Under the pieces are notes generated by a model. That model searched no databases, was not told the DNA's origin, and was given only the letters and a program-made list of their open reading frames with translations. 64,000 nucleotides of DNA from Longimicrobium sp. (GTDB lineage Bacteria > Gemmatimonadota > Gemmatimonadetes > Longimicrobiales > Longimicrobiaceae). The first letter of the stretch is position 1, and each line of letters begins with the position of its first letter. The DNA lies in assembly GCF_036399935.1 (NCBI RefSeq), contig NZ_DASWMD010000058.1:1-64000 (forward strand), read 5' to 3'. Positions 1-14,187 of the stretch are shown here, piece after piece. The translations under genes and the position numbers were made by a program.

Positions 1-449
1 CTTCCGTTCGGAATTTCACGTTCTTGTCCCGTGTTTTTTACTGTGGACGCGAAGGACGTGTTGCCCTCGACTGACACCACCACGGGGCGCTCGTTACAAA
101 AGCACTCCCAAGACCCAGGTTTTCAAAACATCGCGCGAGCCAATGGCCCGCTTCTCAATTCGCACCCGGCCAGTTTCACCCGGCCGCCGCGTTCAGTCCT
201 TCAATCTACCACCCTCGAACCTCTCGGTCAAGGGGTAGGCGGCGATGACTTTTCGTCTTTCGTCCGCCCGGATGTTCTTGCAACGCCTTGAATCTACTCG
301 ACTTCCGGCGCTTGGTCAAGGGAGATTTTTCCGAATTCCTTCCCCTCGGCCGACCCGACGCCGTTTCCGGCGACAGCCCTACAACATATCAGCCTCTCCA
401 ACCCCCGTCAACCCCGCTCCGAAGCCTTTCCGGCCGCTCGTGCTGACAG

Positions 450-1733
450 GTGGTTCCGAAGGGGGCGCCAAGTATAAACGGCCGTTCCCATCGAGTCAAC
501 CCCCTCGTTCGGCGGCTGTGCTGGACGGCGGCGGCGGGGGCGCGTACTGTCATCCGCGTGGACGGGCGGACAGCCGGGAGCATCCAGGCAACGGGGAGAA
601 TGACGGGAGACACGTATCCGGCGGCGCGCATCGTAGCCGGCGCGGTGGAGCAGTACTTCGCCCAGTGCCGGGCAGCGATGCCGGGATTCGCGGAGATTGC
701 GCCCGCGCCGGACCGGCAGACCATCGAGCAGATCGCCACGACCGGGTTCTGGGCCAGCCTGCGCCAGGAAGAAGGGCGCTCGCCCAAGATTTCGCTCGCG
801 TGGGTTCCCCCGGAGCAGGCGGGGCACCCGCTGCGGTTCGCGCGGCCGTTTCCGCTGGAGCCCGGCCTGCTGTCCAGGCTGGCGCCGGCGGTGGAGCGCC
901 CGGGCATTCACCTGGGTGTGTGGGAGCACGGCGGCGAGCTGTGCGTCTGGGGCACCACGCGGTCCATCCCCCCCGCCTGCTTCGTGCTGGAGGTGGTGCA
1001 GCCCGGGCTTCTCGTCATCAAGCGGCGCCGCGCCCGGGAAGATGGCAAGTTCGCCAACGTGGCCGTGCTGCACGGCGACCAGGTGAAGATGGTGGATGAG
1101 CGCGGGGGCGACCTGCCCGCGGGGATGCTCCACACGTCGCCGCTGCTGGCGTTCGCGTCCACGCGGTCGTGGACGGACTCGGTGAACGTGGTGGTGCAGC
1201 TGGCGCTCTCCATGCGCACGCACGGACACGGCGGGTCGCTGCTGATCGTGCCGCGAGATTCAGATGAGTGGCGCAGGTCCATCGTCCACCCGATCAACTA
1301 CCCGGCCGAGCCGGCGTTCACGGGGCTGTCGTCGCTGGCGGCGATGGAGCCGGACGAGGAGGACCGCGCGGAATGGATGGACGCGGTGCGCCGGGCGGTG
1401 GACCAGGTGGCCGGGCTTACCGCGGTGGACGGCGCCACCATCGTCGACGACCGCTACGAGCTGCTGGCGTTCGGTGCCAAGATCGCGCGGTCGCGGGGGA
1501 GCGCGCCCGTGGAGCGCGTGGTGGTGATGGAGCCGGTGGTGGGCGCGCGCCCGGCCGTGGTCGAGGTGTCGGAGCTGGGGGGAACGCGCCACCTGTCCGC
1601 GGCCCAGTTCGTCCGGGACCAGCCGGATGCCCTGGCCCTCGTGGCGTCGCAGGACGGCCGCTTCACGGTGTTCTACCGGCCGCCGGGGCAGGACACCGTC
1701 CACGCGCACCGGGTGGAGACCCTGCTTCTCTGA
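450..1733 (+). CDS. Hypothetical protein with DisA_N/DAC-like (DACNV-type) domain
   Basis: ORF is 427 aa with ordinary composition. It has a DGA-x-I motif (VDGATIVDD) and a GTRH motif like the diadenylate-cyclase RHR region. The start codon is uncertain. Confidence 0.4.
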   Translation: MVPKGAPSINGRSHRVNPLVRRLCWTAAAGARTVIRVDGRTAGSIQATGRMTGDTYPAARIVAGAVEQYFAQCRAAMPGFAEIAPAPDRQTIEQIATTGFWASLRQEEGRSPKISLAWVPPEQAGHPLRFARPFPLEPGLLSRLAPAVERPGIHLGVWEHGGELCVWGTTRSIPPACFVLEVVQPGLLVIKRRRAREDGKFANVAVLHGDQVKMVDERGGDLPAGMLHTSPLLAFASTRSWTDSVNVVVQLALSMRTHGHGGSLLIVPRDSDEWRRSIVHPINYPAEPAFTGLSSLAAMEPDEEDRAEWMDAVRRAVDQVAGLTAVDGATIVDDRYELLAFGAKIARSRGSAPVERVVVMEPVVGARPAVVEVSELGGTRHLSAAQFVRDQPDALALVASQDGRFTVFYRPPGQDTVHAHRVETLLL

Positions 1734-1745
1734 TTCCGGCAACGA

Positions 1746-1776
1746 AAGAGGGCCCGGGGATGATCCCTGGGCCCTC
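1746..1776. terminator. GC-rich hairpin between convergent genes (bidirectional terminator candidate)
   Basis: AGAGGGCCCGGGG-atgatc-CCCTGGGCCCTCT. It lies in the 60-bp gap between the 3' ends of the 450..1733 (+) and 1793..7183 (-) genes. Confidence 0.5.
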
Positions 1777-1792
1777 TCGAGTTCGTTCTGGG

Positions 1793-4700
1793 CTAGCTCT
1801 GCTTCTTTGGCAGCGGCCAGATCCGGAGCGGTTTTCCATCACCTACGATGGGCAGGTTCTGCAGCGCTTCCTCCATGCGCGACTCCTCGGCCGCCGTCGC
1901 GTCGCCCTGCTCACCCGCGGCCACGGGGACCGGCTCTGTGACAGCGGCCGGCTCGGCGGCGGGGACCGGGTCCTCGGCGGCGACGGTCGATGCCGCGGCG
2001 GCGACCGGCTGCACGACGGTGACCGGCTGCGCGCGGACGGCGGAGATCACCCGCAGCATGGCTTCGGCGGCCTGGCTCTGCTGCGCCTGGCCGACGCGGA
2101 TCACCTGCTGGCTGGCGTGGATCGCCTCGACCAGCGGCGCGATCGCGGCGCGGATCACGTCAGGGAGCTCGTCCGGCAGGCGGACCGGCTCCGGCGCGGG
2201 CGGCGGTTCCGCGGCGGGCGCCGGGGCTGACGCGGCTGCACCCAGCGCTTGCAATCCGCCCGCAATGTCGGCCAGCTGGGCGACCACGCGGCCGCCCACG
2301 TCGGCGTCGTCGCTTCCCATCGCCTTGTTGCGCAGGAAGTCGCGCTTGATCTGCTCCCAGCGCGCGGCTTCGTCCGGGGTGAGCACGCCGCGCAGCTCCT
2401 TGAGCTTCAGCAGGTTCTCTTCCGCACCCGTGGTGAGCAGCTGCGCCTCGCCCTGGTAGTGGTCGGAGATCAGCTGCTGCAGCTCGGCGTCGTTCATCAC
2501 CGGCGAAATCTTCTCCGCCAGCTTGTTCATGTTGCGGTAGCTGCCCTGCAGCTTGAACGCCGGCTCGGTGCGGTACCGGTCTGCCTGGGCGGCGCTGGCG
2601 ATGTACTGCTGGTTGACGCGGTACACCACGTCGCGCGCCTTCATGATGCGCTTGAGCGTTTCGACAATCTCGTTGATCTCCGCCGCGCCGTAGGCATGGC
2701 TGAGCCCGTTGGTGGAAACGTCGAGCCCCTTCGCGCGGTCGGCGAACAGGTACAGGTCCGCCATCTCGCGGGTGGCGAGCGGCGCCAGCACCGGGTTGGA
2801 GGTCAGCGAGTTCTCGATGTAGCTGAGCGTGAACGCGTCTTCCATCCCCCCGAGCACGTCGCCCAGGTTGTAGATGTCGGCGCGGTTGGCGAGCATGTCG
2901 GGGATCTTGAAGACTTCGCCCGACTCGGTGTACGGGTTGCCCGCCATCACCACGCAGAACTTCTTGCCGCGCAGGTCGTACGTCTTCGTCCCCCCCCGCC
3001 ACACGCCCTCGATGCGCCGCGTGCCGTCGCAGAGGGAGATGAACTTCTGCAGGAACTCGGGGTGCGTGTGCTGGATGTCGTCGACGTACAGCATCACGTT
3101 GTTCCCCATCTCCAGCGCCAGCCCCAGCTTTTCCAGCTCCTGCCGCGAGGTGGCGTCGGGCGCCTGCGCCGGGTCCAGCGAGCGCACCTCGTGGCCCAGC
3201 GCGGGGCCGTTCACCTTGACGAAGACCAGCCCCAGCCGGTGCGCCACGTACTCCATCAGCGTGGTCTTTCCGTACCCCGGGGGCGAGATCATCATCAGCA
3301 GGCCCATCAGGTCGCTGCGCTTGCCCTCACCCACCGTGCCGATCTGCTTGGCCAGGTTGTCGCCGATGATGGGCAGGTACGTGTCGTTGATGAGCTTGTT
3401 GCGCACGAACGACGTCAGCGGGCGTGCCCGCAGCTCGCCCAGGCGCAGCGCATCGCGCTCTCGCGTGGCGATCTCCTGGCGGATGGCCTGGTAGCGGCGG
3501 TAGCCCGGGAGAAAGCGGTCGCGATGGTCGCGCAGGCGGCCCAGGAACTCGTCAATCGCCAGCGTCAGCCGGCCCCCGTCGATGCGCGGATGCTCGCCCA
3601 GCAGCCCTTCGACCGTGGCCAGCGGCTGCGCGTGATTGGGCCGGCGCTGCAGCTGGTTGCGGGTAAGGATGAGCGCCGCCGCCTCCGGGACGTAGCGCGC
3701 GATCGGGGCGAGGGCGGCGTCGGTGCACAGCGCCTGCAGCCAGTGGATGACGTGCTCGTACCGAGCGGCCGGGCGGTCCTGCAGCTGCTCGAGCATCTGC
3801 CCGAAGGCCGTGCGGAGATCGGCTTCGCCCAGGCGCGACAGGAGCGCGTCCGTCAACTCGCGGGCGGGGAGCGAAAGGATCAGCCCCTCGTGCCCGCCGG
3901 CCAGCTCGTCGAACAGGTACGATGCGGAATCTGCGGCCACGGCGGCGCTGAACGGCAGGGCATTGGCCTCGGCGAAGGCGCGAAGGCGGTTCGCGATCTG
4001 GCCGCGGAGCGCGTCCGCGGCGGACCGGGTGCCGAACAGGCCCTGCATCGCCTTGGCGCTGGCGACGCCCGCCTTCCACTCCCGCGCATCCTCGTCTCCC
4101 TGCGCGGCCGCCCAGAAGAGCGCGGCGAGCGCGCGGGGCTCGGGGGCGTGCACCAGCTCGCCCGCGGCCTCCAGCTGGGCCAGGGCCGTGCGCAGGATCA
4201 GCGTGGCGTCGTGGTCGTGGATGCCGCGCTGGTAGCCGTCGCGGTAGCGTGGGGCGGCGAAATCGACCACCGTCTTGCCCAGCGCGTCGCCCTCCGCGGC
4301 GTGCTTGCGCAGCAGCTCCATCGAAAGCCCCTCCGCGCCGGCCTGGGCGGCGGCCAGCACCTCGCCGGCCAGGTACTCGCCGCGGTAGAGCGTGGGGGAT
4401 TCCGACTCCAGCGACACCTGCCAGTAGTCGCGGAGCGCCGCCAGCTCTTCGCTGTGGATGGGCTCCATGAAGTCGGTGCCCGTCAGGTGCACCGCCAGCT
4501 CGTCCCCACGCGGCAGGATGGTGAGATCCAGTGGCTGCGTGCTGACGCTGAAGCGGTGGCGGCCCAGCTTGATGACGTTGCCGCCGCCCTCGAACAGGTC
4601 GGTGCGGTCGCGCAGCGCGCGAACGGCGCCGTCGCGGGCGCTCTTGACGCGCGCCTCGACGTCGTCGGCCTTCACCGGGTCCTTCAGCGCGCGTAGCCGC

Positions 4701-7183
4701 TCGGCCAGCTCGCGCACCTTCAGGATCAGCGGGTCGCCCGCGAAGAAGGCGTTCAGCTCGTCGGGCGTGGCGAACTTCTCGGTGCGGCGACCCAGCCCCG
4801 CGACGATGCGGTTGGCCGCCTCGAGCACCGACTGCGCCTTGCGCTGGCGATCGTCCAGCAGCGCCTGGCGGTGCGCGTCGAAGGTCTCCAGCAGCTCCTC
4901 GCGCTTGGCCAGGATGTCGCCCAGGAACTGCTCGTGCTCGCCGAACTGGCTCTCGATCTCCTCCAGCTGCACCATCAGCCGCGAGAGCTGTTCGTCCGCC
5001 TTCTCGGGGTCCGTCGCCAGCCCCAGCGCGCTGGCCACGCTCTGTCCGAAGAGGGAGAACTGCGCGCCGAACTGGGCGACGGCCTCGGCCGAGCCCAGCG
5101 TCTTGCGGCGCTGGGCGGCGCGGGCGCGGGCCTGGTTGAGCCCCGCGTAGATGGTGGAGATGGCGTCGACCACCCGCGTGCGCTGCACGGCGTCGTCCAC
5201 CTTGAGCGTCGCCATCAGCTCCGACAGCATGTCGAGGTCGGCGGACATGCCTTCCAGCGCGGCCACCGCCTCGCCGATCCCCTTGGCCGTCTCGGCCTTC
5301 TGCGCATCGGCATCCAGCACCGCCAGGCGCTCGGAGAAGGGCGCCAGCGCCTTGTCGCCGGCCAGGAACTCGCCCGTGGCCGCGCCGACGCGCTCGTGCT
5401 GGGCCTGCAGCTCGGCGCCCATCGCATCGATGGCGGCCGTGTCGACGTAGCGCAGCTCGCGGATGGTGAGCAGGCGCCCGCGCTGGCGGGTGATCTCGTT
5501 CAGCGCGTCGACGAACTCCTGCACCTGCTTCCAGTCCTCCGGAACCAGCCGGGCGAGGAGGGCCGCGTGCTCGTCGCGCGCCTGCGCCATCGCCGCCTCG
5601 GACTGGCGGCGGATGCCCTCCACCTTTTCGAACTCGTCGAGCACCGACTCGCTGGTGGCGGCGATCTCGTGGAGCACGGCGCCCGCGCCCCGGCTGTCGG
5701 CGGCGTCCAGCCAGTGGTGCGCGTCGAACAGGCGGCGGGTGTTGCGGGTGAGCAGACGGTAGCGCTGCACCGACACTTCCGGGCTCTCGATCTCGCGCGC
5801 CAGCTCGAACAGGCTGGAGATGCCCCGCACCAGCTCGGCATTACCCAGGCGGCCCATGAAGGTGGCACCCGGGGGACGGGCGGCGGCGTGCTCGTCGGAG
5901 ACGAAGGGCGACTGCCAGATCTGCATGGGGTGCACGCGCGTGGGCTCTTCGCCCTCGGCGTGGAACAGCACCATGCGCCCGTCGCCCAGCACGGCATGGC
6001 CGTGGCCGAACAGCGGGTTCTGCAGCTTGCGCTGGATGAGGTTGTAGACGAAGAGCGCCGACTTGCCCGCCTCGTGCTCGTAGAAGACGTACATGACGTC
6101 TTCGCCGTTGGGCGAGCGGATGGCGCGCTGGAAGCGCATGCCGTCCATCCGCGCGTCGAACGCCTTGTGCTCGCCGTTCTGAAGGTAGTAGCCGCCCGGG
6201 AAGATGATCCCGTGGTCCTCGGGCAGCTGCACGCACGCCTGCACGATGGCGTCTACCCGGTCGATGCGCCCGCTGATGGTGTTGTAGACGAAGCCGCGCC
6301 ACGTGGTTTCGCGGTACGGCAGCACCTTCAGCAGCACCAGCGATCCCACGCGGGCGAAGTCGAAGGTGGCGTCGTCCAGCGACTGCGTCTTTTCATCCAC
6401 CAGCTCGCTGTGGATGCCCTGACCCGACTCGGTGTTGTTCTCGACCTTGATGGTCAGGTCGCCGCCCGTGGTTTCCACGAACAGCGTGTCGAGCACGTTC
6501 AGGTGGGGAAAGCGCCCGGTGACGGTGTGCTCGCGCCCCGCGCGCGTCCACTCGAAGTCGAACGGCGGCGGGAACGTGAGGTCGCGGTCGCCGCGGGCAT
6601 CCAGGTAGGTGACGTCGCCGCCGGGCGAGACGGCCCAGCGGAAGACGCGCACGTCGGTGCTGCGCTCGCCGATCTGGAACGCCGCCAGCAGCTTGCCGCC
6701 GGCCACGTCCAGCTGCAGCAGCCGCGCGTTCTTGTAGTAGGCGTACAGCTCGTCGAAGTCGCGGACGAAGGCCGGGTCGCCCAGGAAGCTGCCGGCCAGC
6801 GCCACGCCCTCCACGTCGAACCCGTCCGCGCCCTCCACCAGGCGGTAGAGGCCGAAGACGTCTTCCACGCGGGTGGTGGTCTTCAGCCCCAGGAAGACGT
6901 TGTAGCCGAACAGCAGCAGGCCGCCGACGGGAACGATGTCGCGGCCGATGCAGTTGTTTTCGGTGTGGATGCGAAGGCGTCCGATCACCTCCAGCCGGCT
7001 GTCGCCGAACTCGGCCAGCCGCTGCTCGTTGAGCGCGCCGGCGATGTCGCGCAGCCGGGTGCCCTGCTCGGTCAGCCGGCGGCGCAGCACCTCGTACGCG
7101 CCGCCCTCCGCGACCGCCTGGTCCACGGTGGTCTCGGCGGAGTCGGCGGCGGGCTCCCGCACGCCCGGGGACTGCTCGGACAT
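1793..7183 (-). CDS. Giant AAA+ ATPase-domain protein (1796 aa)
   Basis: Uninterrupted ORF with ATG start at 7183. Walker A is PPGYGKTT and Walker B-like is VMLYVDDIQ, placed about two-thirds of the way into the protein. Long coiled-coil/helical N-terminal region and Ala/Pro-rich C-terminal tail. Co-oriented downstream of the flotillin-NfeD pair. Confidence 0.7.
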   Translation of the reverse strand: MSEQSPGVREPAADSAETTVDQAVAEGGAYEVLRRRLTEQGTRLRDIAGALNEQRLAEFGDSRLEVIGRLRIHTENNCIGRDIVPVGGLLLFGYNVFLGLKTTTRVEDVFGLYRLVEGADGFDVEGVALAGSFLGDPAFVRDFDELYAYYKNARLLQLDVAGGKLLAAFQIGERSTDVRVFRWAVSPGGDVTYLDARGDRDLTFPPPFDFEWTRAGREHTVTGRFPHLNVLDTLFVETTGGDLTIKVENNTESGQGIHSELVDEKTQSLDDATFDFARVGSLVLLKVLPYRETTWRGFVYNTISGRIDRVDAIVQACVQLPEDHGIIFPGGYYLQNGEHKAFDARMDGMRFQRAIRSPNGEDVMYVFYEHEAGKSALFVYNLIQRKLQNPLFGHGHAVLGDGRMVLFHAEGEEPTRVHPMQIWQSPFVSDEHAAARPPGATFMGRLGNAELVRGISSLFELAREIESPEVSVQRYRLLTRNTRRLFDAHHWLDAADSRGAGAVLHEIAATSESVLDEFEKVEGIRRQSEAAMAQARDEHAALLARLVPEDWKQVQEFVDALNEITRQRGRLLTIRELRYVDTAAIDAMGAELQAQHERVGAATGEFLAGDKALAPFSERLAVLDADAQKAETAKGIGEAVAALEGMSADLDMLSELMATLKVDDAVQRTRVVDAISTIYAGLNQARARAAQRRKTLGSAEAVAQFGAQFSLFGQSVASALGLATDPEKADEQLSRLMVQLEEIESQFGEHEQFLGDILAKREELLETFDAHRQALLDDRQRKAQSVLEAANRIVAGLGRRTEKFATPDELNAFFAGDPLILKVRELAERLRALKDPVKADDVEARVKSARDGAVRALRDRTDLFEGGGNVIKLGRHRFSVSTQPLDLTILPRGDELAVHLTGTDFMEPIHSEELAALRDYWQVSLESESPTLYRGEYLAGEVLAAAQAGAEGLSMELLRKHAAEGDALGKTVVDFAAPRYRDGYQRGIHDHDATLILRTALAQLEAAGELVHAPEPRALAALFWAAAQGDEDAREWKAGVASAKAMQGLFGTRSAADALRGQIANRLRAFAEANALPFSAAVAADSASYLFDELAGGHEGLILSLPARELTDALLSRLGEADLRTAFGQMLEQLQDRPAARYEHVIHWLQALCTDAALAPIARYVPEAAALILTRNQLQRRPNHAQPLATVEGLLGEHPRIDGGRLTLAIDEFLGRLRDHRDRFLPGYRRYQAIRQEIATRERDALRLGELRARPLTSFVRNKLINDTYLPIIGDNLAKQIGTVGEGKRSDLMGLLMMISPPGYGKTTLMEYVAHRLGLVFVKVNGPALGHEVRSLDPAQAPDATSRQELEKLGLALEMGNNVMLYVDDIQHTHPEFLQKFISLCDGTRRIEGVWRGGTKTYDLRGKKFCVVMAGNPYTESGEVFKIPDMLANRADIYNLGDVLGGMEDAFTLSYIENSLTSNPVLAPLATREMADLYLFADRAKGLDVSTNGLSHAYGAAEINEIVETLKRIMKARDVVYRVNQQYIASAAQADRYRTEPAFKLQGSYRNMNKLAEKISPVMNDAELQQLISDHYQGEAQLLTTGAEENLLKLKELRGVLTPDEAARWEQIKRDFLRNKAMGSDDADVGGRVVAQLADIAGGLQALGAAASAPAPAAEPPPAPEPVRLPDELPDVIRAAIAPLVEAIHASQQVIRVGQAQQSQAAEAMLRVISAVRAQPVTVVQPVAAAASTVAAEDPVPAAEPAAVTEPVPVAAGEQGDATAAEESRMEEALQNLPIVGDGKPLRIWPLPKKQS

Positions 7184-7388
7184 CTGCGCTTACCTGGATG
7201 GCGACGTGGATACCCGGGGACCGATGCGTCCCCGGCACTTCCTGCTGAACAGCGGCCACACGGAAGCCTGGCGAGCGAGGAGGCGATTCGAGACCGGCCG
7301 TGCATGCCCCGGCTGCCCTCTCCCCCCGGCCCCCTCTCCCGCAAGCGGGAGAGGGGGAGAACTGCACCACGCTCGGTCGCGAGGCCTA

Positions 7389-9410
7389 TCAGCCTACGGG
7401 CTCGGCCTTGGGCGCCACCACCTGGTCGAACACCTCGGGGGTGATGGGCACGCTCAGCCGCTCGCGGGGCTCGGGGCGCGACACGCCCAGGAAGCGCTCC
7501 ATCAGGTCCTGCACGATGGGGCTCTTGCCCGCGAAGCCCTCGATGGACTTGCCCAGCGTCAGCGCCTTGGAGAGCGACTCGAACATGCCGCCGTCGCCGC
7601 CCACGAGGTCGATGTTGGCGTTGCGCAGCGCCGAGGCGATGACCTCCGCGTTCTCCTTGCTGACGTCCTTGCCCGCCGCGATGGCGGCCATGGCCTGGTC
7701 GAAGTGCGCTTCCAGCGTCATGCGGAACTCCTCGTGCGTGCGCGCACGGTCGCTCAGCCCGTCGATGGCCTCGAACTTCTTGGTCAGCCCCTCGGCTTCG
7801 GCGGTGAGCTTGCGGGCCGTGACCGTGGCCTCGGCCAGCCCCACCGACTCCACGGCGGACGCCCGGGCCTGCCCCAGCCGCGTCTCGCCGTCCGCCTCGG
7901 CGCCCATCCGCTCGCCCAGCACGCGCGCCTCGGCGGCGCCCTGCTTGTAGGACGCGTCGGCCTTGGCCTCCATCACCCGCGCCTCGGCGGAGCCCACCTT
8001 TTCGATCGCGGTCGCCTCGGCCTCGCGCACGGCGGCCTCGGCCAGGCCGGGGGCGGCCATCTCGACCTTGAGGGCCTCCGCCATCAGGCGCTTGGCGTCG
8101 GCGTCGCGCGACGCGGCGTCCAGCCGGGCCTGCGCCATGGTCGTCAGCTCCAGCGCGCGGTGGCGGGCGGCGGCCTCGGAGGCCTCGGCGTCCTTGACGG
8201 CGCGGACGGCGGCTTCCTGCGCGGCGGCCTCGGCGCCCAGCACGCGCGCCTGCTTGTCGCGCTCGGCCTCGGAAACCACGCGCACTTCCTTGATGCGCTC
8301 TTCCTCGACCGTCACCGTCTTGTCGATGGCGATGCGCTCGCGGGTGATGTTCGCGACGTCCTTCTTGCCCACCTCGACCACCTTGTCGCGCTCCACGCCC
8401 TGCAGCTGCACCTCGCGGTCGGTCGTCACCTCTTCCAGGGCGCGGGCCCGGGCCACGCGCTCCACCTCGATGGCGACGGCGCGCTGGCGGTTCTGCTCGG
8501 CGACTTCCACCTCGCGCTGCACGTTCTGCTCGCGGATGCGGATCTTTTCGTCGGACTCCAGCCGCGCCTGCTCGGCGATCAGGCGCTGTTCCTCGCGCAC
8601 GCGGGTGGTTTCGGCGGTCTCGCGCGCCTGGATCGTCTCGATCTCGCGCTTCTGGCGCGCCTCGGCCTCGGCCTGCTGGCGCTCCAGGGCCAGGGTGGCC
8701 TCGCGGGCCTCGACGTTCTTCTTGGTGATGGCGAGCTTTTCGTTCTGCTCCAGCTCGTTGGTCACCACGTTCTGCGTGGCGGTGCGCTCGGTGATCTTCC
8801 GGATGCCTTCGGCGTCCAGGATGTTGTTGTGGTCCAGCAGGTGCTTGGGCGTCTGCTCCAGGTAGTCGATGGCTACGTCCTCGAGCACGTAGCCGTTCAG
8901 GTCGTTGCCGATGACCTTGACGATGGCGTCGCGGAACTCCTGGCGCTTCTCGAACAGCTCGGTGAACTCGAACTTCTTGCCCACCGTCTTCAGCGCCTCG
9001 CTGAACTTGGCGTTGAACAGCTCGTCCACCGCCTCGCGGTCCGACGCGCGGCTGGCGCCGATGGCCTTGGCCACGCGCAGCACGTCGGCCTGCGTTTCGT
9101 TGACGCGCAGGTAGAAGGCGACGGTGATGTCGGCCCGCATGTTGTCCTTGCAGATCAGCCCTTCCTTGCCGCGCCGGTCCACCTGCAGGGTGATCAGGCT
9201 CACCCGCATCAGCTCGGCCTTGTACAGCACGGGAATGATCAGGCTGCCGGTGAAGCGCACCTTGGGCTGCGAGCTCATGTCGTTGATGATGAGCGCCGTT
9301 CCCTGTTCCACCTTCATGTAGAAGGCCTTGAACAGGGCGAAGGTGCCCAGCAGCATCAACAGCAGGATGCCGACGCCGAGGGCGAAGGGGAGAAGGAGGG
9401 ACGCGCTCAT
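7389..9410 (-). CDS. Flotillin / SPFH (band-7) family protein, YqiK-like
   Basis: N-terminal TM helix followed by an SPFH domain (GTALIINDMSSQPKVRF...), then a long Ala/Glu/Arg-rich coiled-coil typical of flotillins. ATG at 9410. Confidence 0.85.
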   Translation of the reverse strand: MSASLLLPFALGVGILLLMLLGTFALFKAFYMKVEQGTALIINDMSSQPKVRFTGSLIIPVLYKAELMRVSLITLQVDRRGKEGLICKDNMRADITVAFYLRVNETQADVLRVAKAIGASRASDREAVDELFNAKFSEALKTVGKKFEFTELFEKRQEFRDAIVKVIGNDLNGYVLEDVAIDYLEQTPKHLLDHNNILDAEGIRKITERTATQNVVTNELEQNEKLAITKKNVEAREATLALERQQAEAEARQKREIETIQARETAETTRVREEQRLIAEQARLESDEKIRIREQNVQREVEVAEQNRQRAVAIEVERVARARALEEVTTDREVQLQGVERDKVVEVGKKDVANITRERIAIDKTVTVEEERIKEVRVVSEAERDKQARVLGAEAAAQEAAVRAVKDAEASEAAARHRALELTTMAQARLDAASRDADAKRLMAEALKVEMAAPGLAEAAVREAEATAIEKVGSAEARVMEAKADASYKQGAAEARVLGERMGAEADGETRLGQARASAVESVGLAEATVTARKLTAEAEGLTKKFEAIDGLSDRARTHEEFRMTLEAHFDQAMAAIAAGKDVSKENAEVIASALRNANIDLVGGDGGMFESLSKALTLGKSIEGFAGKSPIVQDLMERFLGVSRPEPRERLSVPITPEVFDQVVAPKAEPVG

Positions 9411-9440
9411 CTGCTGGACCTTTCTGAAGGGTTGGATTGC

Positions 9441-10070
9441 TTACCGGCCAAGGAACTGCTGCTCCGATACCACGCGATAGGCGTTCTGCGACTCGATGTA
9501 CTCGATGAGCACGATGCGGTCGCCGCGCTGGAGCGGGTTGGGGCCGTCGTGGCGCACCTGCAGGATCAGCCCGGCGCCGCCGTCGTCCACCGACGCCTGC
9601 CCGTAGTCCGCGGACAGCGTGGGGGTGACGACCACCGCCGACGTCCCCACCAGCGAGCGTTCGACGGGGCGCATCTTCGCGAGCGCGCGGCGCACCGGGC
9701 GCAGCGCGAGGGAGGTCACGGCCACGGCGGGGACGAGCACGCCCACCATCGTGCCGATGCCGGCCAGCGTCCGCACGCCTTCCGGCAGGCCGCCCAGCAC
9801 CAGCAAGTGAACGAAGTACGCGCCCAGCCACGCGGTGAACACCAGCGTGGTGGCCACCACCGTGAAGGGCACGCCGCCCAGCCCCAGCTTCGAGAGCATC
9901 GCCGCCGCGGCGCCCGCGTCAGTCGCGTGTCCGTCGCCCACCAGCGCGTCGACGGAATCGCCGTCGGCCAGGCCGGTGACCGCGAGCACCCAGTACAGGG
10001 TGATGACGGCCAGCAGCATGCTGTAGACGATGGTGGGAAAGCCGAGGGCGGTCTGCAGGAACTCGTTCAC
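9441..10070 (-). CDS. NfeD-like (YqiJ-type) membrane protein, flotillin partner
   Basis: Multiple N-terminal TM helices and a C-terminal OB-like segment. Sits immediately upstream of flotillin, matching the yqiJ-yqiK arrangement. GTG start. Confidence 0.6.
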   Translation of the reverse strand: MNEFLQTALGFPTIVYSMLLAVITLYWVLAVTGLADGDSVDALVGDGHATDAGAAAAMLSKLGLGGVPFTVVATTLVFTAWLGAYFVHLLVLGGLPEGVRTLAGIGTMVGVLVPAVAVTSLALRPVRRALAKMRPVERSLVGTSAVVVTPTLSADYGQASVDDGGAGLILQVRHDGPNPLQRGDRIVLIEYIESQNAYRVVSEQQFLGR

Positions 10071-10418
10071 GGTGGTTGCGGTCCGCGTTCGTTCGGCGTT
10101 TGGCGAAGCCGCGTGGCGGCTTCCCCAAGTTCAACGGAGGAACGGGCTTCGGAGTTTCGAACGGGAGGGGCGGCCGCCCGGGAGGGCTGCAGATCGCCGC
10201 CGACGAGGCGGCGTGTCCGGCGACGGCACATCAGATGTTTGGAACCTAAACGTGCGGACCTGATTACGTCAACTCTCAGGCGGCGGGTTTCGGCGCCGGC
10301 GGCCGGGGTCGATGGCCCGAATTCCTTGCAGGAGACGGAGAGCATCGCCTACCTTCCGGCAGAAGCTCGCCCCGCCGCCGCACGCCAGCGCCCGTTCACC
10401 ATCAACCGCACCGCACGC

Positions 10419-10898
10419 ATGACTCGTTTCCGCTGGGCACTCGTCCTCGTCTTCGCCCTTGGTGCCGCGCCGCTCCACGCGCAGGATGCGGAAGAGGATG
10501 CGCCGGAACCGGCGCCACGCGGACGGACGGCGCAACTGGCCGCCCTCGGCCTTCGCTACGGGGCCCCGCTCGGCGCCTCCGCCTACACCGGTGTCATCAT
10601 CGCCCCGCGCGGCCCCGACTTCATCCAGGGGCCATCGATCATCGGCGAGGTGGGGCAGGATGGCATGCGGCTGTCCGTGGGCATGTCATCCGTAAGCCTC
10701 GGGGGGTCGTATCGTGCGCAGGCGAGCCTCATCCGCACGTGGGACCCTCACGCCGACATCGAGCCGGGCCAGACGTACCTCGGGCCGGAGGTCAGCGCGG
10801 GGCTGATCCTGGGAATCACCGTGGGCCACTACTGGCGGATCAGCGACGGCGGCGGGCCGGCACGGTTCTTCGCGATCGGCTCGTTCCTCGGAGTCTGA
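10419..10898 (+). CDS. Small secreted protein (signal peptide), unknown function
   Basis: The start is MTRFRWALVLVFALGAAPLHAQ. It is the only coding-like part of the spurious 1320-aa ORF 6936..10898. Confidence 0.4.
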   Translation: MTRFRWALVLVFALGAAPLHAQDAEEDAPEPAPRGRTAQLAALGLRYGAPLGASAYTGVIIAPRGPDFIQGPSIIGEVGQDGMRLSVGMSSVSLGGSYRAQASLIRTWDPHADIEPGQTYLGPEVSAGLILGITVGHYWRISDGGGPARFFAIGSFLGV

Positions 10899-10915
10899 CC
10901 CGCGGCTGCGATGGG

Positions 10916-11371
10916 TCATCCAGAGACCGAGCGCAATCCGTCATCCAGAGGCCCGGGCGCACTGAACTGGCCCGCAGCGCATACCATGCAGGGCCGTGGG
11001 ATCTTGCCGCGGGAGCGACTGTGCCCGGGCGCGGCAGCGACACGGAACCCTGGGCCTCGGTCCTGGTCCTCGCCTGGGGGTTCGGCCCAAGCCTCCCCGG
11101 GCGAATGAATTCGGAATTGTGTACTTGACGAAACCGGATATAGCCGGATCATCCGCCGCCCCGTCCACGGGGGCGGCTCCACACCCGACGAACGCACCGC
11201 GCGCCCGGCCCCGGAGCCTTTCAGGTACAGTGCGGCAAGCCGCATCCGGATACGCGGGTGCGGCATGGACCCGCGCAAGAAACTATGCAAGGTAGAGTGC
11301 TGCACCCCGGCCCGTTCAGCGACGGCGCGGATAGACTCAGCTTCGGCGCATTCCGCGAACCACTCCCGCAT
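10916..11371 (-). CDS. Small HTH-like protein, paralog of 35744..36112; C-terminus runs into the IS-end repeat
   Basis: SIRAVAERAGVQHSTLHSFLRGSMPHPRIRMRLAALYL aligns with SIRAVAQEIGVGHSTLYKFIGGSTPRARVRARLLAWYV. The ATG at 11371 is in frame. The 3' portion overlaps repeat 10996..11112, so the gene is probably truncated or altered. Confidence 0.4.
   Translation of the reverse strand: MREWFAECAEAESIRAVAERAGVQHSTLHSFLRGSMPHPRIRMRLAALYLKGSGAGRAVRSSGVEPPPWTGRRMIRLYPVSSSTQFRIHSPGEAWAEPPGEDQDRGPGFRVAAAPGHSRSRGKIPRPCMVCAAGQFSAPGPLDDGLRSVSG
10996..11112. repeat. Solo copy of a ~115-bp repeat identical to the 5' end region of the degraded IS1595-family element at 16046..16158
   Basis: Near-identical string cggcagcgacacggaaccctgggcctcggtcctggtcctcgcctggggg...gaattcg at both loci. 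No transposase is attached at this copy. Confidence 0.6.
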
Positions 11372-11412
11372 GTCCTCCACGCGGACGCCCTTCCACGCGT
11401 CCCGGTTTACGC

Positions 11413-11772
11413 TCACGGCGCCACCTCGCACCGCAGACCGGCCAACGCGGGCACCAGCACGTCCGCGAGCGCCTTCCTGACGCGCACCCGTTCCGCAAGC
11501 GGGAAGGTGTCGGCCAGCAGGTTCAAGGCTATGTCCACGGGTTCCATCTCTGGCGGCTCGCGTCCCTCCGCGTACCTGTGCCCCGCGTCCCACAGCGCCC
11601 CGCCCGGCTCCCCGCCACCCATGAACGCCGTCAAGTCGTCCACCGGCACGCCCAAGGTGCGCGCCAGCACAGGCGCGGGGACGGTCTGCAGTTCGGTGCG
11701 AAAGAGCGCACGCATCAGCGCGTACCCTATCGCATAGTCCATCGCGACAACCGCCTCTTTCGCGTTCATCAT
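11413..11772 (-). CDS. Hypothetical protein (119 aa)
   Basis: Ordinary amino-acid composition. Sits upstream of and co-oriented with the HTH-like gene. Confidence 0.35.
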   Translation of the reverse strand: MMNAKEAVVAMDYAIGYALMRALFRTELQTVPAPVLARTLGVPVDDLTAFMGGGEPGGALWDAGHRYAEGREPPEMEPVDIALNLLADTFPLAERVRVRKALADVLVPALAGLRCEVAP

Positions 11773-11886
11773 AGGCCGTGTTCCCCTTGCGGCGGGTGAG
11801 GTCTGGGCGTAGCCTGTCCAGTGTACCTCTAACCCATTCTCGCAATTCTCGCACCCGCTGGCGTGCGGGTGCGGGGCGGCGCTCGT

Positions 11887-12246
11887 ATGACGCCGCCTGA
11901 ACGCACTATGCCCGTCAACGCCATCCGCGACGCTGTGCGGCGGGCAGCGGCGGCTACGTCCGTGCGCTCAGTCGCGCGGGGCTCCGGCCTCAGTGACCAG
12001 GGGCTGAAATACTTCTTGGAAGGGGGCGAGCCGCGCGCGGGCACGCTTCGCAAGCTAACCGAGTGGTACGTGCGGGATGCGGCGAAGTTGGGCGAGTTGG
12101 ACGCGGAGACGGTGCAGGCGGCGCTATCCGTGCTGCTGGCCGACATGACCGAACCCCAGCTATCCGCAACCCGGCGTGCCGTGCTGGATGCGATCCGTGA
12201 GGGCTACAAGGCCATGGGGCGGGACGTGCCCGGCTGGCTCGGTTGA
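11887..12246 (+). CDS. Small HTH-like protein, second paralog of the same family
   Basis: SVRSVARGSGLSDQGLKYFLEGGEPRAGTLRKLTEWYV matches the family motif. Divergent from 11413..11772. The start could be 11863, 11887 or 11908. Confidence 0.5.
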   Translation: MTPPERTMPVNAIRDAVRRAAAATSVRSVARGSGLSDQGLKYFLEGGEPRAGTLRKLTEWYVRDAAKLGELDAETVQAALSVLLADMTEPQLSATRRAVLDAIREGYKAMGRDVPGWLG

Positions 12247-12494
12247 AACCTACGCGCGGCACCTGCGTATGGATGCGGGACGGAGGCACTTCCGCCGCCG
12301 CCAGGTGCACCCCATCAAGGAGGTGTGTGCTTGAAGCGTTTCTCATACTGACCGCCCGGACGGTTCATGGCTTGGACTCGAACCAATGGAACGGGGCGGT
12401 GCGGCGCGTGGGCAAACGATCCATACAACTAACGGTAAGCTGAGGTTGGGGATTCCTCCCAAAAGACTCCCCGCCGTCCAGAGCCCACGCAACA

Positions 12495-12532
12495 GAGCGG
12501 GCCGGGTCCACTAAGACCCGGCCCGCTCTCGT
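12495..12532 (+). terminator. Perfect 14-bp-stem hairpin followed by a T-rich tract
   Basis: GAGCGGGCCGGGTC-cactaa-GACCCGGCCCGCTC, followed by tcgtttgtgt. Confidence 0.5.
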
Positions 12533-12577
12533 TTGTGTCCCAGCAGTCTAGACGCACAAGTAAGCATCGGGAGGGGG

Positions 12578-12748
12578 CTACTTCCCCTTTGGGCTTCGCC
12601 GCTCGCGGATGCGGGGAGCGGGCAAGCCTTCCGGGGGCACGGGCGTAGGTACGAGCCGCCGGATCGCTTCCTCAAACGGTACGTCGATCTTCAGTACGTC
12701 CGGCGCGGCGCCTCGCGTCTTCGGGCTTGGTTCGGCTTTTTCTGCCAT
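12578..12748 (-). CDS. Small hypothetical protein (56 aa)
   Basis: MAEKAEPSPKTRGAAPDVLKIDVPFEEAIRRLVPTPVPPEGLPAPRIRERRSPKGK, with an ATG start. Lies in the low-GC islet. Weak evidence. Confidence 0.3.
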   Translation of the reverse strand: MAEKAEPSPKTRGAAPDVLKIDVPFEEAIRRLVPTPVPPEGLPAPRIRERRSPKGK

Positions 12749-13096
12749 GATGGCACACCTTCGCGGTGGGAGTCGGGCCTAACGATGTGCACTCGTGGCG
12801 ACAGAGTCAACAATTTTTGCGAAATCCCGGTCCTCATCCCAGGTGTCGAAGTGAGGAGAGTGTTCATAGCGTGTACTTTCAGCCGCGCCCAAAGTGCCAT
12901 ATATCACGTACTTACAACAAGTGCGCAGAGTAGCCGGAGAACACCCAAGTCAGCCACCGGAGAACCGAAGTCGGAAGTTTCATCGTCCGACCCGACAACC
13001 GGGTTGTGCGGCGGAGAGAGTGCGCTATCTTTGTAGGGTGCTGCATCCGGCTCGTGTCCGGCCGAAGACCCCCCACAAAGAGAGGACGGCCCCGCC

Positions 13097-13690
13097 GTGA
13101 CCGACTCCGATCTGCTCCGCAGGATGGAGGACGACCTTGAACGCGCACGCGTTCGCCTGGAAGCGGCACGGCGGGCGCTTGCTGAGGCGCAGCCCCAGGT
13201 GGACGAGTTGGAGATGTTGATCCGAGGCGTGCGGCGCTACGTCACACCCGATGCGCCGCCCCCCGCACCTGCGTCGGTCGCCCAACCGGAGCCCGAGCCA
13301 GCCGCAGAGCCGCAGGTCGAAAATGGGGCAGCGCGATGGGCGAAGGATACATCGATCCGTAGCGCCGCCATCCAGATTCTCGGCCGCACCCCCGACCGCG
13401 TGGTGTCGTCGGGTGACATCGCCGCGACACTGCTGAGTGAGGGCTATCCCTACACGGGTGACACCAGCGACCTAAAGAAGCGTCTCTCCAAACTGCGGGA
13501 AACCGTTTCCGCCGTGTTGAACCAGCACATCAAGGGCGGGCACAATCCGCCGTTGGCGAAGCCCGAGCCCGCGCGGTACGCGCTGCTGCAGACGGACGTG
13601 ATGGCTGAACAGGAAAATCTTTTGAACATGAACGACGAAACGGCCGAGGACCCGCGCGCCAACGCGGACTCGACCGTTTCGGAAAGCTAA
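13097..13690 (+). CDS. Hypothetical protein with N-terminal coiled-coil (197 aa)
   Basis: GTG start preceded by a purine-rich stretch. Ordinary composition. The C-terminal half is conserved-looking (SSGDIAATLLSEGYPYTGD). Confidence 0.5.
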   Translation: MTDSDLLRRMEDDLERARVRLEAARRALAEAQPQVDELEMLIRGVRRYVTPDAPPPAPASVAQPEPEPAAEPQVENGAARWAKDTSIRSAAIQILGRTPDRVVSSGDIAATLLSEGYPYTGDTSDLKKRLSKLRETVSAVLNQHIKGGHNPPLAKPEPARYALLQTDVMAEQENLLNMNDETAEDPRANADSTVSES

Positions 13691-13845
13691 AACCGGGGAA
13701 AACCAACTGGCGTCGGCCCTCCCGGTCTTGTGCCCAACACCGAAGGCGTGAGCACATAGGGACAGTAAGCACCCCTATGGTAACACCCTGAGGTTGCGGA
13801 ATCAAGTTTCGGCCGTGCGCCGCAACTCGCACCCTGAGGTGTATT

Positions 13846-14186: not shown

Positions 14187-14187
14187 C

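What the first reader, a model, noticed from the sequence alone, without database searches (positions are those of the whole stretch)
1793..10070. Flotillin and NfeD-like pair co-oriented with a 1796-aa AAA+ ATPase
The NfeD(YqiJ)-flotillin(YqiK) pair is a conserved membrane-microdomain module. Here it is followed on the same strand, across a 206-bp gap, by a giant single-chain ATPase. That protein has Walker A/B motifs, a long coiled-coil N-terminal region and an Ala/Pro-rich tail. A convergent terminator closes the unit at 1746-1776. The linkage suggests a membrane-raft-anchored mechanoenzyme or scaffold. I do not recognise a characterised function for the large protein.
Basis: partly seen in the sequence, partly recalled or inferred. 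Interest (0 to 1): 0.6.

Follow-up and report, generated by a model that had tools for sequence, protein, structure and literature searches.

The report
Flotillin–NfeD–giant AAA+ ATPase membrane-stress operon
This is a real, tightly conserved three-gene unit: a membrane anchor protein, a flotillin-type scaffold and a 1796-residue ATPase. It is the short form of an envelope-stress operon already described by comparative genomics and partly studied in Pseudomonas aeruginosa, so it is a genuine system but not a new one.

Summary
Three co-directional minus-strand genes encode a YqiJ/NfeD-like membrane protein (9441-10070), a YqiK-type flotillin (7389-9410) and a 1796-aa soluble ATPase (1793-7183), closed by a strong hairpin (1746-1778).

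The ATPase has an N-terminal beta-propeller (DUF3686), a helical region (DUF7902), a helical domain without PDB neighbours, one MoxR-like AAA+ module and an Ala/Pro-rich tail.

The linkage is not incidental:
- The triad is intact, in the same order and strand, in 71 of 71 testable genomes.
- It is also intact in 6 of 6 distant relatives (27-34% identity; those named are Actinomycetota, Bacillota and Bacteroidota) and on megaplasmids.
- Many loci add DUF2170-PspA upstream and rhomboid, PLD or TelA downstream.

This arrangement is already published. Ravi et al. 2024 describe the full and the "abbreviated" operon. In P. aeruginosa it is bacABCDEF, shown by RT-PCR to be co-transcribed across the flotillin-ATPase junction.

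The "DNA repair ATPase" label has no support in the domains or the neighbourhood.

The most likely function is an ATP-driven remodeller acting at the flotillin/NfeD membrane assembly. This mechanism is inferred, not shown.

Verdict: new member of a known kind, moderate-low interest.

The parts
10113..10166 (-). Upstream block conserved with another Longimicrobium locus (L003). Candidate promoter, operator or 5' UTR of the unit.
   Evidence: blastn homology to L003 extends to 10165. The pairwise alignment shows a conserved CCGTTCGAAAC...TCCGTTGAA.TTG.GGA.GCCGCC block. No sigma-70 consensus and no sigma-54 motif here. Function not shown.
9441..10070 (-). YqiJ/NfeD-like small membrane protein (209 aa). 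It has about 3 hydrophobic segments (aa ~5-126; 9693-10058) and a C-terminal OB-like region (aa ~140-205; 9456-9653).
   Evidence: ORF. Hydropathy. hhalign of family alignment A3 against E. coli YqiJ gives probability 90.9%, E 1e-6. Orthologues lie directly upstream of the flotillin gene in 71/71 loci and in the distant loci (E 1e-16 to 1e-47). No Pfam hit.
7389..9410 (-). YqiK-type flotillin (673 aa). Parts: N-terminal membrane anchor aa 3-21 (9348-9404); SPFH region aa ~30-200 (8811-9323); Ala/Glu/Arg-rich helical region aa 201-560 (7731-8810); conserved C-terminal region aa 561-673.
   Evidence: ORF. hhalign of A2 against E. coli YqiK gives 99.9%, E 4e-34. hmmsearch against YqiK gives 1e-56. 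Sources name close homologues YqiK or flotillin family. Hydropathy and composition. The Pfam Flot domain is not detected and the C-terminal hhalign is not significant.
7184..7388 (-). 205-nt spacer between the flotillin and ATPase genes. It holds a 12-bp G+C hairpin (7330-7357) with no U-tract.
   Evidence: Sequence and fold; the fold is not more stable than shuffles (z -0.72 and -0.29). The hairpin is unique in the window. No Rfam family. The spacer does not align by blastn between Longimicrobium loci. A spacer of variable length is usual across loci (median ~210 nt between tblastn ends) and sometimes carries inserted genes.
1793..7183 (-). BacE-type giant AAA+ ATPase (1796 aa), annotated 'DNA repair ATPase'. 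It is soluble, with no transmembrane segment.
   Evidence: ORF and translation. Pfam DUF3686, DUF7902 and AAA_5. 100% identical to a Longimicrobium sp. MAG protein, with more than 5500 homologues. No hydrophobic segment.
5714..7054 (-). DUF3686 domain (aa 44-490): a beta-propeller-like fold, preceded by a helical hairpin (aa 13-59).
4574..5713 (-). Region aa 491-870 that includes DUF7902 (aa 611-694; 5102-5353). Probably helical or coiled-coil.
   Evidence: Pfam DUF7902 E 1.1e-25. Composition rich in A, L, E, R, D. Helices from aa ~430 to 493 in the model. Not modelled beyond aa 500.
3434..4573 (-). Small beta element followed by an all-helical middle domain (aa ~871-1250) with no recognisable relative.
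2264..3433 (-). Single AAA+ module (aa ~1251-1640). Motifs: Walker A SPPGYGKTT (3260-3286); Walker B hhhhDDIQH (3068-3097); MAGNPYT and IPDMLANRAD (2876-2947).
1796..2263 (-). Ala/Pro-rich, poorly conserved C-terminal tail (aa 1641-1796).
   Evidence: Composition A 24%, P 13%. Little conservation in alignment A1. Many family members are 100-150 aa shorter, which may reflect a shorter tail; not checked.
1746..1778 (.). Strong hairpin in the 59-nt convergent intergenic region: a probable bidirectional terminator that closes the unit.
   Evidence: dG -33.3 kcal/mol, z -4.25, 0/200 shuffles fold as well; followed by UUUCGUU on the minus strand. The convergent neighbour 450-1733(+) is a real gene (DACNV domain, E 2.8e-30).

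Best explanation
The locus is the minimal ('abbreviated') form of the PspA-associated flotillin operon. Its P. aeruginosa counterpart is bacC-bacD-bacE of bacABCDEF.

Shown here:
- The three genes are a co-inherited unit found across several bacterial phyla.
- The two small proteins are membrane-embedded YqiJ/NfeD-like and YqiK-type flotillin proteins.
- The large protein is a soluble protein with a beta-propeller, helical regions and a single AAA+ module.
- Its nucleotide-binding and hydrolysis motifs are under strict conservation.

Inferred mechanism:
- By analogy with solved SPFH assemblies, the flotillin oligomerises with its NfeD partner into a cage or dome on the cytoplasmic face of the inner membrane.
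- The ATPase is recruited to this assembly through its propeller and helical regions.
- As an AAA+ oligomer it uses ATP to remodel the flotillin assembly, its clients, or PspA polymers where these are encoded alongside. Remodelling here means assembling, opening or recycling.
- The overall role is membrane and envelope stress maintenance.
- The unit looks as if it moved horizontally between Lysobacter-like Xanthomonadales and Longimicrobiaceae.
For: Linkage:
- In 71/71 loci with at least 3 kb of upstream DNA the order is NfeD-like, flotillin-like, ATPase on one strand.
- Identities to the window proteins co-vary across loci (r = 0.85).
- 6/6 distant relatives at 27-34% identity, the named ones from Actinomycetota, Bacillota and Bacteroidota, keep the triad.
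- Starting from the flotillin, 2/2 look-ups show the ATPase next door.
- The triad also sits on pQBR103, and a flotillin-ATPase pair with a shorter upstream gene on a Streptomyces plasmid. Deinococcus megaplasmids carry the ATPase (neighbours not examined).

Neighbourhood. All accessory genes are membrane or envelope-stress genes:
- DUF2170-PspA upstream in 49 loci.
- Rhomboid in 19 loci, with its start overlapping the ATPase stop codon.
- PLD-like in 22 loci.
- TelA in 20 loci.

Protein identities.

ATPase: AAA+ motifs are invariant in 117 diverse members, and the AAA region is the most conserved part. It is MoxR-like by Pfam and by fold. It has no transmembrane segment.

Literature:
- PMC11237479 describes this operon and its abbreviated form and proposes roles in membrane-associated assembly and dynamics.
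- PMC10948618 shows co-transcription of bacA-F. It also shows co-accumulation of BacB-F (6-13 fold) in a bacA mutant.

Horizontal transfer: the proteins are 73-80% identical to Lysobacter proteins across phyla. The flanks are not syntenic among Longimicrobium MAGs.
Against: - No physical interaction, localisation or ATPase activity has been measured for any family member. The mechanism rests on gene context and analogy.
- Walker B is DD rather than DE, which may mean slow, switch-like hydrolysis rather than a processive motor.
- Canonical MoxR ATPases work with VWA partners, and none is present here.
- In P. aeruginosa, deleting the flotillin (paFlo3 = PA14_16180) gave only about 20% less biofilm and no other phenotype (PMC13086221).
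- The window lacks PspA, DUF2170, rhomboid, PLD and TelA, so any PspA-related role would need partners encoded elsewhere.
- A few loci carry unrelated genes inserted between the flotillin and the ATPase, so co-transcription is not universal.
Confidence: 0.6

Rival explanations
1. Membrane-protein quality control. The flotillin/NfeD cage confines clients, and the AAA+ ATPase extracts or unfolds them for proteolysis. The analogies are HflK/C-FtsH and rhomboid/Derlin-p97. On this view the ATPase does not remodel the cage itself.
For: A rhomboid intramembrane protease gene is translationally coupled to the ATPase in 19 loci and is present in the pQBR103 cluster. From established knowledge, SPFH cages recurrently partner AAA+ proteases (HflK/C-FtsH, prohibitin with the m-AAA protease; discussed in PMC13220708 and PMC13086221).
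Against: The ATPase has no protease domain and no membrane anchor. The window and most loci lack the rhomboid. MoxR-like AAA+ proteins are not known threading unfoldases. No substrate is known.
Confidence: 0.2
2. Anti-phage or abortive-infection defence module that acts through the membrane.
For: The distribution is patchy and shaped by horizontal transfer, with megaplasmid carriage. It is associated with PspA, TelA and TerD-type genes that have historical links to phage and colicin resistance. An IS1595 fragment lies about 5 kb away.
Against: No PADLOC model hits any of the three proteins. No phage homologues were found. In Xanthomonadales the unit sits among housekeeping genes (trpAB, accD, truA, asd), not in a defence island. 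No nuclease or other typical effector is in the core triad.
Confidence: 0.08
3. MoxR-type maturation chaperone. The ATPase inserts a cofactor into, or activates, a specific membrane complex, with the flotillin as its platform.
For: The best fold and Pfam matches are the MoxR-family proteins NorQ and CbbQ and the AAA_5 family. The MAGNPYT...IPDMLANRAD motifs resemble the MoxR sensor-1/DRF region (from memory).
Confidence: 0.07
4. The database label is correct: an SMC/RecN-like DNA repair ATPase, with only incidental linkage to flotillin.
For: Only the names: the Pfam DUF3686 description 'ATPase involved in DNA repair' and the NCBI name 'DNA repair ATPase', and the PA14_16190 annotation quoted in PMC8855297.
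Against: There is no ABC/SMC head, nuclease or DNA-binding domain. The only weak DNA-related match is a generic P-loop similarity to RuvB, far below cut-off (17 bits against 282). Linkage to membrane proteins is universal. No paper in the library links DUF3686 or PF12458 to DNA repair.
Confidence: 0.03

Closest known systems
P. aeruginosa bacABCDEF operon (PA14_16140-16200 / PA3732-PA3727): BacC (short NfeD), BacD (PaFlo3 flotillin), BacE (PA14_16190 ATPase)
   Same: The order NfeD-like, flotillin, giant 'DNA repair' ATPase is the same. Pseudomonas loci (L014-L016 and others) carry the same triad at 62-64% identity, with DUF2170-PspA upstream and a PLD-like gene downstream. The operon status is shown by RT-PCR (PMC10948618).
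   Different: The window lacks bacA (DUF2170), bacB (PspA) and bacF. No sigma-54 motif lies upstream. Orthology to PA14 itself was inferred through P. paraeruginosa and published annotations, not by direct alignment.
PSP-associated CesT/Tir-PspA + Band-7/flotillin + YqiJ/YuaF + AAA+ (coiled-coil, beta-propeller) operon, and its 'abbreviated' form (Ravi et al. 2024, PMC11237479)
   Same: The component list and architectures match exactly. The window is the abbreviated form, with only flotillin, YqiJ-like protein and ATPase.
   Different: None in kind. That paper says the ATPase is present only 'in some cases' next to flotillin/YqiJ pairs. Here the converse is quantified: the ATPase was never found without the pair.
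E. coli YqiJ-YqiK and B. subtilis YuaF(NfeD2)-FloT pairs
   Same: An NfeD-like membrane protein is encoded directly upstream of a flotillin. The homology was detected by hhalign.
   Different: Those pairs have no ATPase (E. coli context). The window's flotillin belongs to a separate subfamily. Distant triad orthologues score 252-760 bits against its profile, against 182 bits for YqiK. Pfam Band_7, Flot and YqiJ models do not reach it.
HflK/C-FtsH and other SPFH cage + AAA+ machine pairs
   Same: An SPFH scaffold is genetically coupled to an AAA+ ATPase at the inner membrane.
   Different: The ATPase here has no protease domain, no transmembrane anchor, and an unrelated N-terminal architecture.
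MoxR-family AAA+ ATPases (NorQ, CbbQ, RavA)
   Same: Nearest fold and Pfam neighbours of the AAA+ module.
   Different: No VWA partner. A roughly 1250-residue N-terminal extension. An invariant DD Walker B.
Vps4-ESCRT-III
   Same: An AAA+ ATPase is genomically coupled, in most lineages, to an ESCRT-III-superfamily protein (PspA) and acts at membranes. This is a functional analogy only.
   Different: It is not homologous to Vps4: there is no MIT domain and the AAA+ clade differs. PspA is absent from the window. A 2025 review states that a Vps4-like ATPase appears absent in bacteria (PMC7619361).

Membership tests
SPFH / flotillin (YqiK type) | SPFH (Band 7) domain | tested here: met
   hhalign of A2 against E. 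coli YqiK gives 99.9%, E 4e-34, covering YqiK residues 16-434, which include its Pfam Band_7 region 39-192. The Natronoglycomyces orthologue hits PF01145. Pfam itself gives no hit on the window protein, even at E = 10.
SPFH / flotillin (YqiK type) | N-terminal membrane anchor | tested here: met
   A single hydrophobic segment at aa 3-21, mean Kyte-Doolittle value 2.53.
SPFH / flotillin (YqiK type) | Long Ala/Glu-rich helical (coiled-coil) region after the SPFH domain | tested here: met
   aa 201-560 is A 20%, E 17%, R 12% and aligns with the YqiK helical region. No structure was predicted.
SPFH / flotillin (YqiK type) | C-terminal 'Flot' domain (PF15975) | tested here: inconclusive
   No Pfam hit. 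hhalign of the C-terminal 206 columns against YqiK 400-553 gives probability 1.7%, E 0.03, although the alignment is colinear.
NfeD / YqiJ (DUF1449) | Multi-pass N-terminal membrane region plus C-terminal OB-fold domain | tested here: inconclusive
   About 3 hydrophobic segments. hhalign of A3 against YqiJ gives 90.9%, E 1e-6 over 139 columns. There is no Pfam YqiJ_N, YqiJ_OB or NfeD hit, no hmmsearch hit on YqiJ and no PDB hit.
NfeD / YqiJ (DUF1449) | Encoded directly upstream of, and co-directional with, an SPFH gene | tested here: met
   A 30-nt gap in the window. The same arrangement holds in 71/71 loci.
AAA+ ATPase (MoxR / AAA_5-like) | Walker A, Walker B, sensor-1 and arginine-finger motifs | tested here: met
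   SPPGYGKTT, hhhhDDIQH, MAGNPYT and IPDMLANRAD are invariant in 116-117 of 117 members. Walker B is DD rather than DE. Assigning R1434 as the arginine finger is inference.
AAA+ ATPase (MoxR / AAA_5-like) | Pfam or fold match to the family | tested here: met
AAA+ ATPase (MoxR / AAA_5-like) | Partner protein with a VWA domain (canonical MoxR systems) | tested here: not met
   No VWA-domain gene appears in any examined neighbourhood.
Bac / PSP-associated flotillin-AAA+ operon (PMC11237479, PMC10948618) | [quoted passage not shown] | tested here: met
   The architecture matches the published description.
Bac / PSP-associated flotillin-AAA+ operon (PMC11237479, PMC10948618) | CesT/Tir (DUF2170)-PspA dyad upstream (full form only) | tested here: not met
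   No tblastn hit for DUF2170, PspA, rhomboid, PLD or TelA representatives anywhere in the 64-kb window. This fits the published 'abbreviated' form.
Bac / PSP-associated flotillin-AAA+ operon (PMC11237479, PMC10948618) | Co-transcription as one operon | not testable with these tools
   Shown by RT-PCR only for P. aeruginosa (PMC10948618). In the window the spacer hairpin has no U-tract, and the strong hairpin comes after the ATPase.
DUF3686 'DNA repair ATPase' | PF12458 domain | tested here: met
   E 1.1e-190, full-length match.
DUF3686 'DNA repair ATPase' | A role in DNA repair | not testable with these tools
   No DNA-related domain or neighbour was found. No paper in the library mentions DUF3686 or PF12458. 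The name appears to be inherited annotation.

The most novel reading that the evidence does not exclude
The BacE-type ATPase is an obligate flotillin-dependent AAA+ remodeller. It would be the missing ATP-driven partner that assembles, opens or recycles bacterial flotillin cages and, where PspA is co-encoded, ESCRT-III-like polymers. That makes it a functional analogue of Vps4 that arose independently from a MoxR-like AAA+ module. Its strict one-way dependence on the flotillin pair would reflect direct docking of the propeller and helical regions on the cage. Its invariant DD Walker B would reflect switch-like, regulated hydrolysis.
Probability: 0.25. Interest if true: 0.7.

Novelty: new member of a known kind. 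Interest (0 to 1): 0.33.

Why it matters
Bacterial flotillins and PspA/Vipp1 polymers are known membrane organisers and repair factors. No ATP-driven machine that remodels them has been identified, and a 2025 review states that a Vps4-like ATPase appears absent in bacteria (PMC7619361).

This family counts at least 581 species in the genome scan and about 450 clusters at 50% identity with E below 1e-30. It is the most consistent genomic candidate for such a machine.

The survey here adds three points to the literature:
- The ATPase was never found without its flotillin/NfeD pair, across several bacterial phyla.
- Its catalytic motifs, including an unusual DD Walker B, are invariant.
- The 'DNA repair' name has no support in domains or neighbourhood and is probably misleading.

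For this window in particular, the locus is an ordinary, probably horizontally acquired copy of that system.

Tried and rejected
Searches that found nothing:
- Pfam, NCBIfam and PADLOC scans of the two small proteins gave nothing, even at E = 10.
- PDB sequence searches, single-sequence and profile, gave nothing for the flotillin-like and NfeD-like families. For the ATPase they gave only generic P-loop hits.
- hhalign of the flotillin C-terminus against the YqiK Flot region was not significant.
- Rfam on 1-13000 gave no family.
- The sigma-70 scan gave no promoter, and the terminator scan missed the real hairpin because of its weak U-tract.
- A sigma-54 motif search found nothing near the operon start, and fewer matches in the window than in shuffles.
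- The spacer hairpin is not a repeated element in the window.
- The phage collection has no homologue.
- Papers mentioning DUF3686, PF12458, or 'DNA repair ATPase' together with flotillin: none.
- The Anantharaman/Aravind 2012 Ter paper is not held.

Ideas considered and rejected:
- SMC-like DNA repair protein: no such domains.
- Defence system: no PADLOC hit, and a housekeeping context in Xanthomonadales.
- Dynein-like multi-AAA protein: there is only one AAA+ module.
- ORF 10067-10345(-), which overlaps the operon start, as a gene: no homologues, Arg-rich translation, and conservation with L003 stops at 10165.

Limits:
- The middle helical domain has no PDB neighbour, so nothing could be inferred from it.


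Full report
OBSERVATION

The three ORFs exist as described, all on the minus strand: 9441-10070 (209 aa, GTG start), 7389-9410 (673 aa) and 1793-7183 (1796 aa).
- 30 nt separate the first two genes and 205 nt separate the second and third.
- The window matches a Longimicrobium sp. (Gemmatimonadota) metagenome-assembled genome, where the large protein is 100% identical to a record named 'DNA repair ATPase'.
- Downstream, a convergent gene (450-1733, +; DACNV sensor domain) leaves a 59-nt gap. This gap holds a strong hairpin at 1746-1778 (dG -33.3 kcal/mol, z -4.25 against shuffles) followed by UUUCGUU.
- The consensus scanner missed the hairpin because of its weak U-tract.

THE LARGE PROTEIN

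Pfam finds DUF3686 (aa 44-490, E 1e-190), DUF7902 (aa 611-694) and AAA_5 above its cut-off (aa 1296-1423). NCBIfam and PADLOC add nothing.

N-terminal 500 residues (AlphaFold2 model, pLDDT 84, pTM 0.82):
- A helical hairpin is followed by about 28 beta strands.

Residues 860-1660 (AlphaFold2 model, pLDDT 75):
- It contains a very confident all-helical domain (aa ~885-1245) with no PDB neighbour.

Other features:
- There is a single AAA+ module.
- The protein has no hydrophobic segment.
- It ends in a poorly conserved tail of 24% Ala and 13% Pro.
- Across 117 diverse full-length relatives (down to about 27% identity), five motifs are essentially invariant: SPPGYGKTT, hhhhDDIQH, MAGNPYT, IPDMLANRAD and LQGSYRN. 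The AAA+ region is the best conserved part.
- The Asp-Asp Walker B is a family hallmark. From memory it recalls DnaA; this was not tested.

THE TWO SMALL PROTEINS

Pfam, NCBIfam and PDB searches, including profile searches, do not recognise either protein. Even so, sources name close homologues YqiK or flotillin family.

Flotillin-like protein:
- I built family alignments from related loci (A2, A3) and compared them with E. coli YqiK and YqiJ.
- The flotillin-like family matches YqiK with probability 99.9%, E 4e-34, over 401 columns that include the SPFH domain. hmmsearch gives 1e-56.
- An actinobacterial orthologue hits Pfam Band_7.
- The C-terminal Pfam 'Flot' domain could not be confirmed.

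NfeD-like protein:
- It matches YqiJ at 90.9% probability, E 1e-6.
- It has about three hydrophobic segments; the flotillin has one N-terminal anchor.

The evidence is stronger for the flotillin than for the NfeD-like protein.

IS THE LINKAGE REAL?

Genome scan:
- A scan of one genome per species with an ATPase alignment matched at least 581 species. The best 80 loci (50-84% identity) were fetched.
- In all 71 loci with at least 3 kb of upstream DNA, the NfeD-like and flotillin-like genes lie directly upstream, in the same order and on the same strand.
- The ten remaining loci are cut by contig ends, and what remains of them is consistent.
- Identities of the three proteins to the window co-vary across loci (r = 0.85).

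Distant relatives:
- I took a 27%-identical representative and looked up the contexts of its relatives.
- Five were examined. Three are named: Natronoglycomyces (Actinomycetota), a Lachnospiraceae MAG (Bacillota) and Flavobacterium tegetincola (Bacteroidota). Two are unnamed contigs.
- All carry a ~200-aa gene, a ~660-aa gene and then the ATPase. The two upstream proteins are true orthologues of the window's pair (E 1e-16 to 1e-231).

Other checks:
- Starting from the flotillin, two look-ups (a Deinococcus genome and an unnamed 2.2-Mb contig) also show the ATPase next door.
- The triad is on the P. fluorescens megaplasmid pQBR103, and a flotillin-ATPase pair with a shorter (144-aa) upstream gene is on a Streptomyces linear plasmid. 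Deinococcus megaplasmids also carry the ATPase (neighbours not examined there). It is absent from phage genomes.
- E. coli has the YqiJ-YqiK pair without any ATPase.

The dependence is therefore one-way. The pair can exist alone, but the ATPase was never seen without it.

WIDER NEIGHBOURHOOD

Clustering of flanking ORFs, followed by Pfam scans, shows recurrent accessory genes:
- A DUF2170 (YjfI-like) gene and a PspA/IM30 gene directly upstream, in 49 loci.
- A rhomboid protease whose start overlaps the ATPase stop codon, in 19 loci.
- A PLD/HKD hydrolase, in 22 loci.
- A helical protein plus TelA, in about 20 Xanthomonadales loci.

pQBR103 joins the triad to PspA, a rhomboid and YjfKLMC-like genes. 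None of these accessories is present anywhere in the 64-kb window. All of them point to membrane and envelope stress, and none to DNA metabolism.

WHAT IS ALREADY KNOWN

Ravi et al. 2024 (PMC11237479) describe this operon:
[quoted passage not shown] That is the window's arrangement.

In P. aeruginosa the operon is bacABCDEF (PA14_16140-16200):
- RT-PCR shows transcripts across every junction, including bacD-PA14_16190.
- BacB-F rise 6-13 fold in a bacA mutant, and a sigma-54 promoter is proposed (PMC10948618).
- PA14_16190 is the 'ATPase involved in DNA repair' and is RsmA-regulated (PMC8855297).
- PA14_16160 and PA14_16180 are the short NfeD and PaFlo3. Deleting paFlo3 gave only about 20% less biofilm (PMC13086221).
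- No paper in the library gives a biochemical function for the ATPase.

THE SPACER AND TRANSCRIPTION
- The 205-nt spacer contains a 12-bp G+C hairpin (7330-7357) with no U-tract.
- Its folding is no better than that of shuffled sequence, and it matches no Rfam family.
- It does not align by blastn between Longimicrobium loci.
- A spacer of variable length is typical across loci. A few genomes carry unrelated cargo there, for example a NYN protein plus an MNT/HepT pair in Lampropedia.
- Read-through is therefore plausible, and is shown in P. aeruginosa, but it is not proven here and is probably not universal.
- Upstream of the first gene, a ~55-nt block (10113-10166) is shared with another Longimicrobium locus. 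No sigma-54 motif is present.

ORIGIN
- The Longimicrobium proteins are 73-80% identical to Lysobacter proteins, which is closer than Pseudomonas proteins are (62-64%).
- Homology between Longimicrobium MAGs is confined to the triad itself (window 10165-1840).
- G+C content matches the surroundings, and both groups are high-GC soil bacteria.
- I infer relatively recent horizontal transfer of the triad as a self-contained unit.

MECHANISM

Shown:
- A co-inherited unit made of a membrane-anchored flotillin, its NfeD-like partner and a soluble AAA+ protein with strictly conserved catalytic motifs.
- A consistent association with envelope-stress genes.

Inferred:
- The flotillin/NfeD pair forms a membrane cage, as solved SPFH complexes do.
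- The ATPase docks on this cage through its propeller and helical regions.
- It uses ATP to remodel the cage, its clients or PspA polymers.

Rivals:
- Client extraction for proteolysis, supported by the rhomboid coupling.
- A defence module.
- A MoxR-style maturation chaperone.
- The literal DNA-repair label.

The last has only its name in its favour.

VERDICT

The system is a new member of a known kind.

Its residual interest is that the family is the best genomic candidate for an ATP-driven remodeller of bacterial flotillin or PspA assemblies, which a 2025 review regards as missing (PMC7619361).

Noticed in passing
window 15219-15560 (-); window 12001-16000: A C-terminal fragment of an IS1595/ISXO2-like transposase (PF12762, E 2.6e-15) lies inside a 4-kb stretch of lower G+C (0.63 against about 0.69-0.71). 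This stretch also holds small ORFs with no family match, about 5 kb upstream of the operon.
   Followed up: partly
window 450-1733 (+): The convergent neighbour encodes a 427-aa protein with a DACNV sensor domain (E 2.8e-30) and a faint DisA-type diadenylate cyclase match (E 0.17). It may be a c-di-AMP-related protein. It shares the hairpin at 1746-1778.
   Followed up: no
window 3068-3097 (ATPase aa 1363-1372): Walker B reads hhhhDDIQH, with Asp in place of the usual catalytic Glu. This is invariant in 116-117 of 117 diverse family members. It may indicate slow or regulated hydrolysis.
   Followed up: partly
L036 6898-9989; L044 7514-9929: In a few genomes the flotillin-ATPase spacer has acquired unrelated genes. 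Lampropedia hyalina has an unknown 254-aa protein, a NYN-domain protein and an MNT/HepT toxin-antitoxin pair. A Lysobacteraceae strain has META, DUF389 and DUF417 proteins. The spacer is evidently a tolerated insertion site.
   Followed up: partly
L014 15241-15807 and 18 other loci: A rhomboid intramembrane protease gene starts 3 nt before the ATPase stop codon, which suggests translational coupling. Other lineages instead have a PLD/HKD hydrolase (22 loci) or a helical protein plus TelA (about 20 Xanthomonadales loci).
   Followed up: partly
L004 9501-9827 and about 4 other loci: A conserved ORF of about 90-108 aa sits between the flotillin and the ATPase in some Lysobacter and Pseudomonas loci. 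It has no significant Pfam match; to my eye the sequence looks TerB-like, but this is unverified.
   Followed up: no
L088 (pQBR103, NC_009444.1 85395-104287): The P. fluorescens SBW25 megaplasmid fuses two PspA-operon types into one co-directional cluster: PspA, rhomboid, DUF2491, DUF350, DUF1190 and a glutathionylspermidine-synthase-like gene, followed by the NfeD-like/SPFH/ATPase triad.
   Followed up: no
L087 3188-8818: One distant family member (1876 aa) carries ankyrin repeats in addition to the family's usual domains. The L086 contig is rich in ankyrin-repeat genes. This may be a host-associated lineage.
   Followed up: no
window 10165-1840 compared with L002 and L003: Nucleotide homology among Longimicrobium MAGs is confined to the triad and the flanks differ. 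Protein identity to Lysobacter is 73-80%. Together these suggest cross-phylum horizontal transfer of the unit.
   Followed up: partly
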